A stretch of DNA of 64,000 nt, from contig OZ024740.1 in the NCBI GenBank assembly GCA_964016885.1, positions 83,142,001-83,206,000 on the forward strand, given 5' to 3'. A program made the position numbers and the translations under genes. Positions 1-38,374 of this stretch are shown one piece after another. Position 1 is the stretch's first letter. The number at the start of each line of letters is the position of its first letter. This DNA is from Eledone cirrhosa. Taxonomy: Eukaryota. The notes beneath the pieces were generated by a model. The model did not search any database and was not told the DNA's origin. It saw only the letters and a list, made by a program, of their open reading frames with translations.

Positions 1-325
1 ACTAGCCTGAAAGCATTGCCTTCGCTGCCGGTCATGTCCAGCACCACCGACTTACCTTCTGGGTCCAGCCAAGATGGCCCGTATGGCGAGATCCCAGCTT
101 CTCCGAAAAAGCAGGGCAACCCATCACCCGATCCTGACGGCTGGGAGATGCGTATACGTTGTAGCCGCCGAAGGTAGGTGCGAAGGCTCATGCTTCTGAG
201 ATTCTGGTCTTGCTGATGGCCGCCACATCTATGTTTAGTGACCTGAGGTCGTTGAGCAGGTGACACTGCTTACAAGATGACTCCAGGCCACATACATTTA
301 TACTGCTTATTCCAAGTACAGCCAT
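1..325 (-). pseudogene. ORF2 N-terminus, apurinic-like endonuclease (APE) domain
   Basis: The reverse strand from the ATG at 325 reads MAVLGISSINVCGL..HLLNDLRSLNIDVAAISKTRI, matching APE motifs I-II (SxNvRGL; DvxxlqET). Confidence 0.8.
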
Positions 326-361
326 GTTGGATGAGAAACGGGGAAAGTGAGAAAGGATCAC

Positions 362-1900
362 TTACCTTCATCGTGTGGTGAAGGGACAGTAGAACCTTAC
401 TTTTGGCTGGTCATGGGTGTTTCCAAGAGGATGTCGGTGTATATGGTCTTGGTAAACAACCTTCTAAATCTCCAACTGTGTTGGGGAATTTTTGTTTTAA
501 AAGTTTGTAATGTTCTGTTTTAATTTGAATGATGTTTATGCTTGTCGGGAGAGTTCTTGGTGTTGGTGGGGTGTAGTAGTTTTTCTGTGATGTCTGTGTG
601 CTGCTTTATATGTTATAAGATGTTGGTGTTTTGGGTGATGCTGCTGGTGGTGGTGTGGTTATTGTTCGTGGTGATGCTTGTGGTGGTGATGGTGATAGTG
701 GTGGTGTTTCTGCAAGTCTCCTTGCAGCCTTTACCCCTCTTCGTTTGCCTTCGCTTTTCGAGCGTGAAGCTAAGGGTTTCCCTTTTTGTTTTCTTTTTTT
801 TTGCAGACCATTTGTCACTTCCCTCCCGCTTCATACTCCATATCGGATTATGTGGGGTTATGAGTTCCACTGATGTTGGTGTAGGTAGTGGAGCCCGCTC
901 TGGCGATTGTGTCGCCGGTGTAGCTACTGCGACTGTTGGTGTTGCCGCCACTGCTCCCGTTGCTTTAGTTGTCCGTGGCCTTTGTATGGGTGCCATGGAC
1001 TTTTCCCTCCTACTCACCATGAAGTATTCTGCTTCTGTTGCCTGCCCTGCTCTTGGTAGCAGTGGATCAGGCCTCGGAAGTCGGGTGGCCCTCGTCTTGA
1101 CTGTCTTCTGCGGGCAGAAGTCCTTGAGTGACCCTTTTGCCCACAGATATAGCACCTTGGGCGCCTTCCTTCCACGTTTATAGGGAGTTGGAGACCTTCC
1201 CGAGGTCTATGATATCTGGGATGGCCTCGATGCACTCCTGGTCAGTTTGTATTAGCAGTTGCATGCCTATACCTGACCAGTTCTCTCCTCCCATTCTCTG
1301 TATTTGCAGTATGGCGGTCCTGTCCTCGATTCCAGCAAGTACAGATGCGGCCAGCCAAGGTATGGGCACGTCGGACGGAACCTGGGTCACAATTTTCTGC
1401 CCGCAGTAGGAGGGCACCAACACTATCTCCTCAGTCGTTAGGGTTTCCAAAGAGTGAGACCTCGTCTCTTGGAGGGTGGCGAAAAGTACGTCTACTCTGG
1501 CGTACTTTTTGCCTCGGGTGATGTGGGTTTTGCCCGCCCGGACGCACACCCGACCCTTTTTGATTTGAGCCTCCGTGACTCTCTCCACCCGATGTGACAT
1601 TTTACTTACGGTGCGGTAAGTCACCGTGCGGAACTGCTGGTCTTTGAAGAAATCGGGTTGAGGTTTCAGGAAAACACTATTGTTATTTCTTGTCACTATG
1701 TCTCTTGCGACTGCCATTTCCTCCTCCGTAACTAGCTCTGTCTCTATATTTCGGGCCACACCTGCGAAAGAATTGGCCGCTTTTTCAGCGGCACCATTAT
1801 TGCTGACGCTAGTGCTGCTACTGGTATTGTTTTTGGTGCTGTTGCTGTTGCTACTGCTACAAACGGTGTTGTTGGTGTTGTTGCTGTTATCACTGTTGTA
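362..1900 (-). pseudogene. Gag-like ORF1 with CCHC zinc knuckle, frameshifted
   Basis: ORFs 1178..1759, 1014..1235 and 613..1155 align with 31933..33577 (TVTYRTVS, HITRGKKYA.VDVLFAT, LVPSYCGQKIV, QECIEAIPD). Confidence 0.75.
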
Positions 1901-3180
1901 GTTGGTTGTGTTTTTGGTGCCATCGTTGTTGTTTTTTCGGTGTAATTTGTATTGTTGCTGTTGGTGTTGTCATTGTTTATTTTCTTGTTAGTGGTGTTAA
2001 TATCGTTGTTGCATTTGTTGTCATTTTTTTCTGTTGTCTATATTTTGGTTGTCGCTGTTATTGTTGTAGTTGGTGTGGTATTTTTTTCTAAATTAGTGTT
2101 CTCAGTGTTGTTGTCTTTGTTCATGTTGTTTGGGGATATGTTTGTTGTATCTATTTTTGTAAGCCTGCTCTCAACCTTTACGCTGTTGTCGCACGACAGC
2201 AGACATATTAACAATGTTCTTTTAAAATTTTTAAAAGTAAAATTTTCAAATATTTTAGCGAAAAGACCCAAATACTATACATTCCCCTTTACAGGGTAAA
2301 GTCGAAGGGCTTATATTCCTTACACAACAAGAACAATTTAACAACAGATAATTATAACAGGTTAATAAAGCGACTTACTGAGAGCGATCAAAAAGACTTC
2401 CGAACAGAGCAATAATAATAATAATAATAATAATAATTATTATTGTTATTATAATAATAATAAGCGAGCTGGAACTGGAGGAACTCAGCAGAAAGATTAG
2501 ATTGGAAATGGAGACTGGAGTATGCCAGATGAGTATTGACGTACATGTACGTCAATACTCATCTTTTTCCATTTCTCCGAGGGTTCTTAACCCCACTAAC
2601 AGGCTAAATAATTTCTTTAATTTCTTTAGTCGAAATACGGCGATAGCTTACATTTCTAATAATTTCAAACCCCCTCGCGGTTTCGAAAATATTCTTACAC
2701 ACATATATATATATATATATTATATATATATATGTATACAAAATTAAGATAAATTAAATGAATTTAATCTAAATCGAAATTGTGGGTGTCATGTCATAAC
2801 GGCATACGCCATATCGCCTGGAAATAAGCCCAAAGATAAATATGAGCATTTTATAATAACTAGAAATTGATTAACATATAAATATACATGAATAATCACA
2901 GGAGATAACTTTTACACGCGTGTAAACACGCATAGCTAGTTTGGGTAATAATTAAATTTATACCTTTAAGTATGATTAACCTTCCTTGTATATACATATA
3001 TGTATGTACGTATACACACTCACATTTATATATATATATATATATATATATATATATGTACGTATGGGTTTACCGAACAGTTATTATAATGTTCGGTTTG
3101 TTTGTAAACAAACAGCCCCAATTAAGCCGTACAGTGTTCGGCAACGATCGTTGCACTTTTTTTCAACACTGACAAAGGAA

Positions 3181-35534: not shown

Positions 35535-37033
35535 AGGGAAGAAGACGCACATGGTGGATAGAAGGTCATGAAATCGCTCCCGTAAGATTTTGATTTTTAA
35601 CATATTTAAATCAATTGTGAAATAACAATTCTTAGTACAAATGATGCATAAAGCACCAGACTGAACTATCAGAAAAATTCGGATCATAATATTCTGTTAT
35701 ATCACTCAAATATTTAATTTTGTATTATAGATTTTATATTCAAAAAAGAAAATGGTTATAAATGGAAGAAAACCCCCTCTGTCTACACTATATAGAACAG
35801 CCAAATAACAGCAATTTCACCAACACCACAAACTAGATACACCACCTATCCCATCACCTCTGTGTACACTAAATACAACAGCCAGATAACGGCAATTTCA
35901 CCACCACCACCACCAATAATCCCAGAATAATAATAATAATTACTATTATTATTGTCTCAAGTTTTCACAAAATGTCTAAATCCAATATTAAGGATTTATG
36001 TCAACACATATATTAAACATACGCGACTAACCGCATAGATACGGCGATCAAACGATCAAACAACTACAGTCTATTCAACAAAACTCAGGAACGACAACGC
36101 CATCACTATAGTCACCGCCGCCACCACTCCATCCATCATTGCTACAACTATCCCATCACCACCGCCACCACTCCTTCATTGCTACCACCGCTATTCCCCC
36201 CATTACTTCTGTTAACTTACGAAAGGGGAAGGTGGCGGTATCACTAGAAAATATTAATATTTAATTTTGGATCAGGAATGTTAGAGTCGAAAAGGAGGAA
36301 AATGGCAAAATGACTAAATGACTAAATGACTAAATAGCTAAATAGCTAAATGGCTAAGTGGGCGGAGAAGATATTTTCACCACCAACACCACCACCACTA
36401 CCACGCCAAAAACTCTGGTCAAGTTACCTCAACTTCTATTTCTACTTCAACTTCAACACCAGTACTACGATCACATCACCACCACCACTGCGTCATTATC
36501 GCTACCGCCGCTATTCTCTCCCACTACCTCCTGCTAAGTACTACTATCACAGCACCACCTTCACCACCGCCACCACTGCCTCATTATCACTACCGCCGCT
36601 ATTCTCTCCCACTACCTCCTGCTACATCGTAGTGTCTCCACTAAAAGAGGAAGGCATCAAAATATATAAATAGACTGATTTGATGACCCGGTCAAAATAA
36701 AAAAAACAAAAATCAAAATCAAAGCAGCACAGCAACAACGAAAAACGTAAAGAAAAGAAAAATGAAGATAAAAACAGACAGACGGTCAGAGAAGGGAAGG
36801 GAAAATCTAAGTCAGACATTCAAACATTACATTACAATGAAACCTATGCTTATTCTTTTTTGTTTTGTTTTTTGCCTGTTTGTTTGTTTGTTTATTTATG
36901 TTCGTCTACAGCGTGATAGTGCCACACAAAAATCACCGGGAGTGACAAAATCACCGGAGGTGATGAAATCACCGGTGGTTATGTAACCATACATTCACAA
37001 ATCCTCGATAAGAGTGTTTAAATGTCGAACCTA
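35535..37033 (+). mobile_element. Family B 5'UTR, inverted relative to its adjacent 3' part
   Basis: It begins with the element 5' terminus gggaagaagacgcac and ends tgtcgaacctaaa, just before the ORF start, followed by (TTA)n. Confidence 0.88.
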
Positions 37034-37057
37034 AATTATTATTATTAATGTTATTAC

Positions 37058-37748
37058 TCTTTGAGTCACAGTCATTGATGTTAGTTAACTGGAAAGTTTG
37101 TTGAAATGAATATCAATCCACTACCTGCAGCCTCAGATATTCAGGACGTATCGGAGGGTTCTTGCGGTTCCCAGAAGCATGCCTTTTGAAGCGTTTCAAA
37201 AAGTGTGAAGGGGCCAATTTTCTTTAACCATCTCTGAAAACTTTTTGAGATAGTCCCCAGTGCGCCTATGACAATCGGGATCACTTTGACTTAATGGCAG
37301 TTCCAAATCCTTTTTACCTCCCACTTTAAGTCTTGGTATCGGTTAATTTTCACCCTCTCCTTCTCTTGCACTCTCGTGTCGAATGGGCAGGCCACATCCA
37401 CAATCAGGCACGATCTTTTTTCTTTGTCCACAACCACCAGGTCAGGTCTATTTTGTTCCAGTTTCTTGCCCGTCTGTATCCTAAAATCCCACAGCACCTT
37501 CACCTGATCGTTTTCTATCACCGCCTCTGGCTTATGCTCATACCACTTCTCAGAATGTGGTAAATTGTTTACTTTGCATAGGTGCCAGTGGATCACCCTG
37601 TCCATCACATCATGTCTCCAGCCCTTATAGTGAGTCTGGGCTAGGTGTTTACACTCGGATACAATGTGAGCCACAGTCTCCTCTCTCCCTCCACAGATCC
37701 TGCACAGTGGGCTAGCCTCCTCCTTGTAAATATGGTGTTTCACCCACT
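37058..37748 (-). mobile_element. Family B copy, 5'-truncated
   Basis: ORF 37291..37743 covers CCHC and RLE. It has (TAA)n on both sides. Confidence 0.9.
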
Positions 37749-38374
37749 TATTATTATTATTATTATTATTGTTATTAATATTATTATCTAATTATGGTTT
37801 GGTTTTGTAGTTTCCGAGGAATGTTATTCAAGACTAGAGAGCTCTACTGCCATTATTACTGTTGTTATTTTATATAAGACAAACACCTCGAATAGGAAAA
37901 CATCCTTTAATCCACTTCCACAATTCTCGAATATTTTTGTAAAATTCAGTGCACTACATAGAAACATCAACTACATAACATCCAATGTAAGCAACAGCAA
38001 TGTTTTGCTATATTTGATATTAAATTGATGGTATATCCAAACAGTTATTATAGGAACATAGGTGACGGTGTAGGTGTCTAAGACTTGTTGTTTATGGAAA
38101 GGGATTTAGTATATTATGTGAATTGAAATTGTGAAAAAAAAAACGATTGCAAATATGTTGATCTCTTTTACCTTTTTGTTTTTTCTTTGGAAGGATGTCA
38201 GAAAAGTATTGATATCATTAATATCTGTTCCGCCACGTCAATGATAGACGCCAATCTTTATGATGATAATCTTGATTACCACACTCATATATATATATAT
38301 ATATATATATATATATATATATATATATAGGTTTAGGAATAACCAAAGAGTGCTTAGAAATACATTGTTTTATT

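What the first reader, a model, noticed from the sequence alone, without database searches (positions are those of the whole stretch)
1..37780. Two retrotransposon lineages with unrelated endonucleases share one (TAA/TTA)n target in opposite polarity
Seen: the R4-like (RLE) copies have (TAA)n on their sense strand, including the single plus-strand fragment at 4175, which follows (AAT)n. The Tx1-like (APE) termini instead have (TTA)n on their sense strand: the 5' end at 2410 (minus), the 3' tail at 7166 (plus) and the 5' end at 31553 (plus). Known: Dong targets TAA repeats, and some Tx1 families are microsatellite-specific. Inference: each family's tail creates a landing pad for the other, giving a self-propagating community of two nucleases that nick opposite strands.
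Basis: partly seen in the sequence, partly recalled or inferred. Interest (0 to 1): 0.72.

Follow-up and report, generated by a model that had tools for sequence, protein, structure and literature searches.

The report
Two jumping genes share one microsatellite
Across this animal genome, two unrelated kinds of retrotransposon sit in the same ATT/TAA repeat but almost always face opposite ways and stack into chains like this 47-kb one, likely because each starts copying from its own strand of the repeat and each insertion leaves fresh repeat for the next; this extends a known targeting habit rather than showing a new mechanism.

Summary
Confirmed, and genome-wide. Window 1-37790 is a chain of Dong/R4-type (RLE) and Tx1-type (APE) non-LTR retrotransposons joined by (ATT/AAT)n; it runs on 8.9 kb left of the window. 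1646 of 1687 exact 5' ends of one young Tx1 family follow TATTATT in fixed register; 522 of 599 minus-strand R4 5' ends follow AATAAT. In 237 de-duplicated places no intact end showed the opposite polarity. Truncated copies carry the repeat too, so it is a target, not only a tail. Age asymmetry suggests insertion in both directions (8 Tx1-younger, 15 R4-younger, 25 ties of 48). Own-tail and free-microsatellite use are as common, so this is a shared target, not a partnership. Opposite first nicks are inferred from target-primed reverse transcription, untested. A tRNA-type SINE follows Tx1's polarity. Dong on TAA, microsatellite-specific Tx1 (Kibi, Koshi) and opposite-orientation sharing (TRAS/SART) are known; I found no paper on an ATT-specific Tx1 or an APE/RLE pair on one microsatellite. 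The scan noted the same pattern at 8 or more other places in this genome.

The parts
1..2410 (-). Tx1-type element, family X: 5' UTR, ORF1, start of the APE domain; the copy continues left of the window to about -3289 and is followed head-to-tail by another Tx1 (to about -8816)
2411..2463 (.). (AAT)n on + = (ATT)n on the Tx1 sense strand; shared head-to-head by Tx1 and an R4 fragment
   Evidence: 84% to R4B
4153..4712 (+). (TAA)4 followed by an old 5'-truncated R4 fragment (CCHC knuckle and RLE region); 3' end lost; best other copies 78-82% identical
6560..7166 (+). 3' part of an old Tx1 family with AATAAA and (ATT)n tail 7152-7166; left border approximate
7167..7412 (+). SINE (tRNA-type by look, recalled) behind the Tx1 tail, with a degenerate ATT tail
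7413..7601 (+). 5'-truncated Tx1 3' end (7413-7562) and the (ATT)n it shares tail-to-tail with R4 family A
7602..12373 (-). R4 family A copy: 5' UTR part, Myb-like N-terminus, RT, CCHC, RLE; frame broken
12391..13540 (-). internally deleted R4 (5' UTR joined to family B 3' part; tail lost), (TAA)n at its 5' end
13541..18107 (-). full-length R4 family B (13593-18054) with (TAA)n on both sides
18108..19729 (-). R4 family A 3' part
19728..20087 (+). Tx1 3' fragment fused to R4 on both sides without any repeat (likely a deletion product)
20083..24033 (-). R4 family B body and 5' UTR, interrupted by two SINEs (23055-23218, 23297-23478, + strand); (TAA)n at the 5' end
24034..27947 (-). R4 family C copy (24034-27897) with (TAA)n on both sides
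27948..31512 (-). three truncated R4 pieces (B 27948-28881, A 28900-29696, B 29703-31512)
31510..31552 (.). (ATT)n shared head-to-head by a truncated R4 and the young Tx1
31553..34191 (+). young Tx1 family Y, 5' 2635 bases (5' UTR, ORF1, start of APE), 98.7% to an intact 6030-base copy; broken off by fusion to R4
34191..34411 (-). second copy of the R4 5' junction that precedes the Tx1 (31297-31546), here without Tx1, then (ATT)n
34412..35534 (-). R4 family B 3' part
35536..37035 (+). inverted R4 5' UTR piece, no repeat at its 5' end
37036..37790 (-). last truncated R4 family B (37058-37749) with (TAA)n on both sides; end of the chain

Best explanation
Several Tx1-type (APE) and several Dong/R4-type (RLE) retrotransposon families sit in the same (ATT/AAT)n duplex in opposite, fixed orientations, likely because each primes reverse transcription from a nick on its own strand and each insertion likely leaves repeat on both sides, which would seed the next insertion. 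Shown: polarity; repeat on both sides of full-length copies; repeat at truncated 5' junctions; tandem and mixed chains; intact APE+RT ORF2 in young Tx1 copies. Inferred from the established TPRT scheme: Tx1 nicks the AAT strand and R4 the ATT strand first; the (AUU)n or (AAU)n end of the RNA pairs with the freed strand, which would explain the lack of poly(A) despite an AATAAA just before the Tx1 tail and the longer 3' tracts. Tx1's exact ATT|G junction puts the top-strand cut at a TpA step; R4 5' junctions are loose and often carry extra purines. Cross-family use follows from the shared target and needs no partnership. Later short deletions fused and trimmed the copies in this window.
For: 1646 of 1687 family Y 5' ends follow TATTATT; 522 of 599 minus-strand R4 5' ends have AATAAT within 12 nt (plus-strand matches multi-counted, not used). 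De-duplicated loci: Tx1 full 5' ends 105 of 105 ATT; Tx1 3' ends 107 of 109 ATT; R4 full 5' ends 41 of 45 AAT, 0 ATT; R4 3' ends 118 of 121 AAT, 0 ATT; background 2.5% for each polarity. Truncated 5' ends: Tx1 23 ATT, 3 AAT, 42 none of 68; R4 76 AAT, 4 ATT, 3 both, 69 none of 152. In 34 evenly spaced 10-kb samples 5 of 5 truncated R4 5' ends follow AAT and 2 of 4 truncated Tx1 ends follow ATT. Three Tx1 families with unrelated 5' ends share the ATT|G junction. 23 full-length family Y copies carry a median of 22 units on both sides together, the 3' tract longer in 17 of 23, against a median of 3 for runs of 3 or more units in the samples. Mixed junctions: 8 Tx1-younger, 15 R4-younger, 25 within 3 points, of 48. 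Domains.
Against: No nick was measured. Target duplication cannot be seen inside a repeat, so longer tracts may reflect a preference for long targets or later slippage. 42 of 68 truncated Tx1 and 69 of 152 truncated R4 5' ends have no repeat; many are deletions, fusions or alignment breaks to divergent references, but I did not resolve each. Nearest-neighbour identity is a rough age proxy that depends on how many copies were sampled, and 25 of 48 pairs are ties. Most loci were found through these elements, so neighbour counts are not genome frequencies.
Confidence: 0.8

Rival explanations
1. Strand choice comes mostly from the RNA tail: both nucleases cut A/T-rich DNA loosely, and only nicks that free a strand complementary to the element's (AUU)n or (AAU)n 3' end prime reverse transcription.
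For: No poly(A) at Tx1 3' junctions despite AATAAA just before the tail; the SINE has the same tail and polarity but looser targeting (62 ATT, 2 AAT, 1 both, 50 none of 115 5' ends); target-like 3' sequence improved accurate priming in SART1 (PMC7265360, passages).
Against: The 5' junction register is exact in 97.6% of family Y copies, and at least 6 units lie upstream in 42 of 42 sampled copies; in TRAS1/SART1 the endonuclease is the main determinant. The two routes can act together.
Confidence: 0.3
2. The two families are true partners: each depends on, or prefers, the other's tail, forming a self-propagating two-member community.
For: 60 mixed Tx1/R4 junctions among 539 ATT runs, with both age directions; 9 of 11 runs of 8 or more units in the evenly spaced samples touch a Tx1 or R4 end (my reading of the list).
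Against: Same-family junctions (38 Tx1-Tx1, 54 R4-R4) outnumber mixed ones, and 35 full Tx1 5' ends have no library element upstream; pure Tx1 tandems exist.
Confidence: 0.1
3. The repeat is only part of each element (a 5' leader and a 3' tail copied with the RNA); chains arise by passive accumulation or tandem duplication.
For: One 250-base R4 junction is present twice in the window; read-through transcripts in chains could carry upstream repeat.
Against: Copies truncated at many different positions start directly behind the repeat; upstream flanks are diverse, including (TTC)n-(TTA)n genomic microsatellites; neighbours differ in family and age.
Confidence: 0.04

Closest known systems
Dong, DongAg, DongBg, Darwinula Dong1/2 (R4 clade, RLE)
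   Same: Single ORF with RT and C-terminal RLE; (TAA)n target (PMC3812793, PMC7998251, passages); likely N-terminal Myb/SANT-like domain.
   Different: Several coexisting families, over 1100 exact full-length 5' ends, shared target with Tx1; no HDV-like 5' ribozyme found by my rough scan, whereas Bombyx Dong has one (PMC3774820, passages).
Microsatellite-specific Tx1-clade families: Kibi (TC)n, Koshi (TTC)n, crocodilian (TTCC)n/(TTTC)n families
   Same: Two ORFs, APE+RT+CCHC ORF2, insertion into a microsatellite (PMC4494074, passages).
   Different: Target is (ATT)n, the reverse complement of Dong's; not found in my paper searches. Relationship to Kibi/Koshi not tested.
TRAS1 and SART1 in (TTAGG)n telomeric repeats of Bombyx mori
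   Same: Two families insert into one simple repeat in opposite orientations (PMC7265360, passages).
   Different: TRAS and SART both use an APE and end in poly(A) (poly(A) read for SART1); their repeat is telomeric and host-made. Here one APE and one RLE lineage use a dispersed microsatellite that forms their own tails.
R1 and R2 in insect 28S rDNA (recalled, no call)
   Same: An APE element and an RLE element share one repeated locus.
   Different: Different sites in a gene, same orientation, no regeneration of a simple repeat.

Membership tests
Tx1 clade (L1 group) | ORF1 plus ORF2 with N-terminal APE, RT and C-terminal CCHC | tested here: met
   Intact copy L065: ORF1 frame 715 aa, ORF2 frame 1204 aa; Pfam Exo_endo_phos 3e-14, RVT_1 1e-28, zf-RVT 8e-08; APE motifs present; L1 endonuclease structures are the best PDB hits, E 4e-6.
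Tx1 clade (L1 group) | RT phylogeny groups with Tx1 rather than L1 | tested here: inconclusive
   The only named homolog among 8 at E<=1e-50 is 'Transposon TX1 uncharacterized 149 kDa protein', 32% identical. No tree was built; named reference elements were not on hand.
Tx1 clade (L1 group) | Target specificity (over 20% of flanks one sequence type, criterion of PMC4494074) | tested here: met
   1646 of 1687.
Kibi/Koshi subgroup | (TC)n or (TTC)n target | tested here: not met
   Junction is (ATT)n; two copies lie in mixed (TTC)n(TTA)n tracts but join at ATT.
R4 clade / Dong | Single ORF: RT, CCHC knuckle, PD-(D/E)xK-type RLE at the C-terminus | tested here: met
   L212 frame shows CxxC...H..S-C, RPD, DMSVP and EKLSKY motifs (motif names recalled); best PDB hits are R2 proteins, aligned from RT through RLE, E 2e-27.
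R4 clade / Dong | N-terminal Myb/SANT-like domain without zinc fingers (PMC7998251) | tested here: inconclusive
   Model of window 27337-27621, pLDDT 90; many Myb/SANT domains among the top rows (Sap1 Z 6.5, rmsd 5.6, 80 aligned; Zeste 5.5; ISWI SANT 5.4; R2 5.3), but all Z under 8.
R4 clade / Dong | (TAA)n target on the sense strand | tested here: met
R4 clade / Dong | RT phylogeny within R4 | not tested
   Of 120 listed homologs none carried an R4 or Dong name; no tree built.
R4 clade / Dong | 5' HDV-like ribozyme | tested here: inconclusive
   No Rfam match and no hit of a home-made descriptor in two R4 5' ends; the descriptor had no positive control.
TRAS/SART-type pair | Opposite first-strand nicks shown biochemically | not testable with these tools
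   Needs purified proteins.

The most novel reading that the evidence does not exclude
The (ATT)n microsatellite of this genome is largely made and kept by its two occupants: complementary RNA tails set strand choice, every insertion lengthens the target, and the strictly antiparallel chains make each family's read-through RNA antisense to the other, so the chains act as self-growing, mutually silencing (small-RNA-producing) islands that drive genome size.
Probability: 0.15. Interest if true: 0.72.

Novelty: new variant of a known kind. Interest (0 to 1): 0.45.

Why it matters
It gives a natural pair in which an APE and an RLE retrotransposon read one 3-base duplex from opposite strands, with intact young Tx1 copies on hand. 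That makes it easy to test whether the nuclease or RNA-tail pairing sets target and polarity. It also offers a concrete source for long ATT microsatellites and for TE hotspots: Tx1 alone covers 4.8% of 340 kb sampled (6 of 34 stretches). Each ingredient has a precedent, so the step is a new target and combination, not a new mechanism.

Tried and rejected
First age test counted some places twice through overlapping loci; replaced. First termini table used a 5'-short family A reference, which produced false 'no repeat' R4 ends; one search corrects this, but its family A reference holds a SINE piece that causes several false R4 exceptions. The R4 genome share is inflated by SINE sequence in one reference and is not used. 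SINE-Tx1 tail homology: 4 alignments, reached by 33 to 610 of 1000 shuffles, not shown; the SINE link rests on polarity only. Ribozyme scans inconclusive; one weak descriptor hit in family Y (0 of 20 shuffles) competes with a simple hairpin. Search with an ORF2 stretch to sample truncated copies returned nothing, probably because the words are too common. Sequencing runs: no RNA holder listed; contigs of three runs gave no information on flanks or expression. The original Dong paper was not held. Paper searches for an ATT-specific Tx1 or an APE/RLE pair on one microsatellite found none; Repbase, Dfam, Kojima and Fujiwara 2004 and most subscription papers were not searchable, and I read no supplements, so such a family may already be listed there.
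Full report
What is there. The window lies in a 3.0-Gb animal genome; an octopod is likely (inference; Dong-R4 and L1-Tx1 are both recently active in Octopus vulgaris, PMC13282606, passages; taxon not tested). Bases 1-37790 are a chain of non-LTR retrotransposon pieces, about two thirds R4-type and 15% Tx1-type. It continues 8.9 kb to the left as two head-to-tail Tx1 copies. The left part has Tx1 on minus and R4 on plus; the part from 6560 has Tx1 on plus and R4 on minus, except an inverted R4 5' UTR at 35536-37035. 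Links between pieces are (ATT/AAT)n tracts or repeat-free fusions that look like deletions (12391, 13109, 19728, 20083, 29703, 34191, 35535).

Observation check. It missed two further plus-strand R4 pieces, a tail-to-tail Tx1/R4 junction at 7562-7602 and a repeat-free Tx1 fragment at 19728-20087. The R4 junction before the Tx1 at 31553 is present again at 34191-34411 without Tx1, which fits Tx1 having entered a tract at an existing R4 junction (inference).

Identity of the elements. An intact 6030-base copy of the family at 31553 (L065) has ORF1 and an ORF2 with APE, RT and CCHC domains, the APE motifs, L1 endonuclease as best structure hits and a TX1-named homolog. Three Tx1 families with different 5' ends were seen; two share ORF2 at about 95% but differ upstream of position 2265. 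The R4-type ORF has RT, CCHC and RLE motifs and matches R2 structures over that span; its N-terminus models as a helical domain resembling Myb/SANT with middling Z. No tree against named references was built, so clade labels rest on architecture, target and one named hit.

Genome-wide test. Searches that held only element sequence returned 30 of 30 family Y and 30 of 30 family X 5' ends directly behind (ATT)n, the window's own copy included in each, and 30 of 30 R4 5' and 30 of 30 R4 3' ends beside (TAA)n. Whole-genome exact counts: 1646 of 1687 family Y 5' ends follow TATTATT; 522 of 599 minus-strand R4 5' ends have AATAAT within 12 bases (plus-strand rows were multi-counted and left out). 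In 237 de-duplicated places (1.41 Mb) intact ends gave Tx1 105 of 105 (5') and 107 of 109 (3') ATT, R4 41 of 45 (5') and 118 of 121 (3') AAT, none purely of the wrong polarity, against 2.5% background for each.

Target or tail. Truncated copies start behind the repeat at many different internal positions: Tx1 23 ATT against 3 AAT of 68, R4 76 AAT against 4 ATT of 152; the rest have no repeat (42, 69) or both (0, 3) and include deletions and alignment breaks. In 34 evenly spaced 10-kb samples, 5 of 5 truncated R4 ends and 2 of 4 truncated Tx1 ends follow the expected repeat. So the repeat is a target.

Who lands on whom. Among 539 ATT runs in the loci: 33 Tx1/R4 tail-to-tail, 27 head-to-head, 38 Tx1-Tx1, 54 R4-R4, 20 SINE-to-Tx1 and 11 SINE/R4 tail-to-tail (loci were chosen through these elements). 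Of 48 mixed junctions with at least 150 bases on each side, Tx1 looked younger in 8, R4 in 15, and 25 were within 3 points; the proxy is nearest-neighbour identity and is rough. Both directions are therefore likely, but nothing shows preference or dependence.

Mechanism. By the established TPRT scheme the primer strand is the one complementary to the element's sense strand, so Tx1 would prime on the AAT strand and R4 on the ATT strand (inference). Tx1 has AATAAA just before its tail but no poly(A) at junctions, which suggests priming within (AUU)n paired to the target. Full-length family Y copies carry a median 22 units on both sides together, the 3' side longer in 17 of 23, against a median 3 for background runs of 3 or more; this fits net repeat creation but also a liking for long tracts. 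Tx1 5' junctions are exact; R4 junctions are loose with added purines. An abundant SINE has an (ATT)n tail and Tx1's polarity (62 ATT, 2 AAT, 1 both, 50 none of 115 5' ends); my test of tail homology to Tx1 was inconclusive.

Known context. Dong elements target (TAA)n in insects, molluscs, cnidarians and an ostracod (PMC3812793, PMC7998251; passages). Tx1-clade Kibi, Koshi and crocodilian families target (TC)n, (TTC)n, (TTCC)n and (TTTC)n (PMC4494074; passages). PMC4640811 (passages) states that RLE, Tx1 and R1 elements are the main target-specific groups. PMC3774820 (passages) reports Dong's 5' ribozyme. Eight searches of the held library (listings and abstract starts only, apart from the papers named) showed no ATT-specific Tx1 and no APE/RLE pair on one microsatellite; Repbase and supplements were not seen.

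Verdict. Real, strong and genome-wide; best read as a new variant of known microsatellite targeting. Earlier notes of this scan describe the same pattern elsewhere in this genome; they are not independent support. Interest 0.45.

Noticed in passing
L150, L151, L161 and others; position 2265 of the L065 element: Two Tx1 families share ORF2 and 3' UTR (about 95%) but have a different 5' UTR and ORF1, with a sharp switch at one position: a likely ORF1/promoter swap.
   Followed up: partly
L211-L216; window 13109-13540 and 17203-18054: R4 families A and B, whose coding regions do not align at the DNA level, share the first ~580 bases of their 5' UTR (about 91%), again a likely module swap.
   Followed up: partly
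L189, L198, L201, L203, L205, L206, L095, L214: (GAA)n or other purine-rich additions between (TAA)n and R4 ends; they may be non-templated or slippage products and a source of compound microsatellites.
   Followed up: no
L073, L110, L118; window 19728, 34191: Repeated direct fusions of minus-strand R4 to plus-strand Tx1 interiors without repeat, as expected from deletions across antiparallel pairs.
   Followed up: partly
G000:C28:122866000-122886000 (L061, L062); C1 lists: Pure head-to-tail Tx1 tandems with ~6.05-kb period; most sampled family Y copies are full-length, unusual for LINEs.
   Followed up: partly
window 6130-6292: Imperfect palindrome/inverted repeat between the two polarity domains of the chain; possibly a MITE remnant.
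   Followed up: no
window 49892-50674 (minus): Isolated RT fragment of another LINE type (RTE-like by look, recalled), outside the chain.
   Followed up: no
window 51374-52017 and 54412-54837: Clusters of the same SINE, some in tandem, one inverted.
   Followed up: no
window 31650-31710 (family Y 5' UTR): Two adjacent strong hairpins, one with a TTCG loop; a weak HDV-like descriptor hit, unconvincing.
   Followed up: partly
window 31392-31465 and 34287-34344: A 28-base tandem duplication just inside both copies of the same truncated R4 5' junction.
   Followed up: partly
runs X5, X7 on L065:694-6723: Contigs about 99% identical to the young Tx1 occur in runs with two other organism codes; may be close relatives or label variants.
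   Followed up: no
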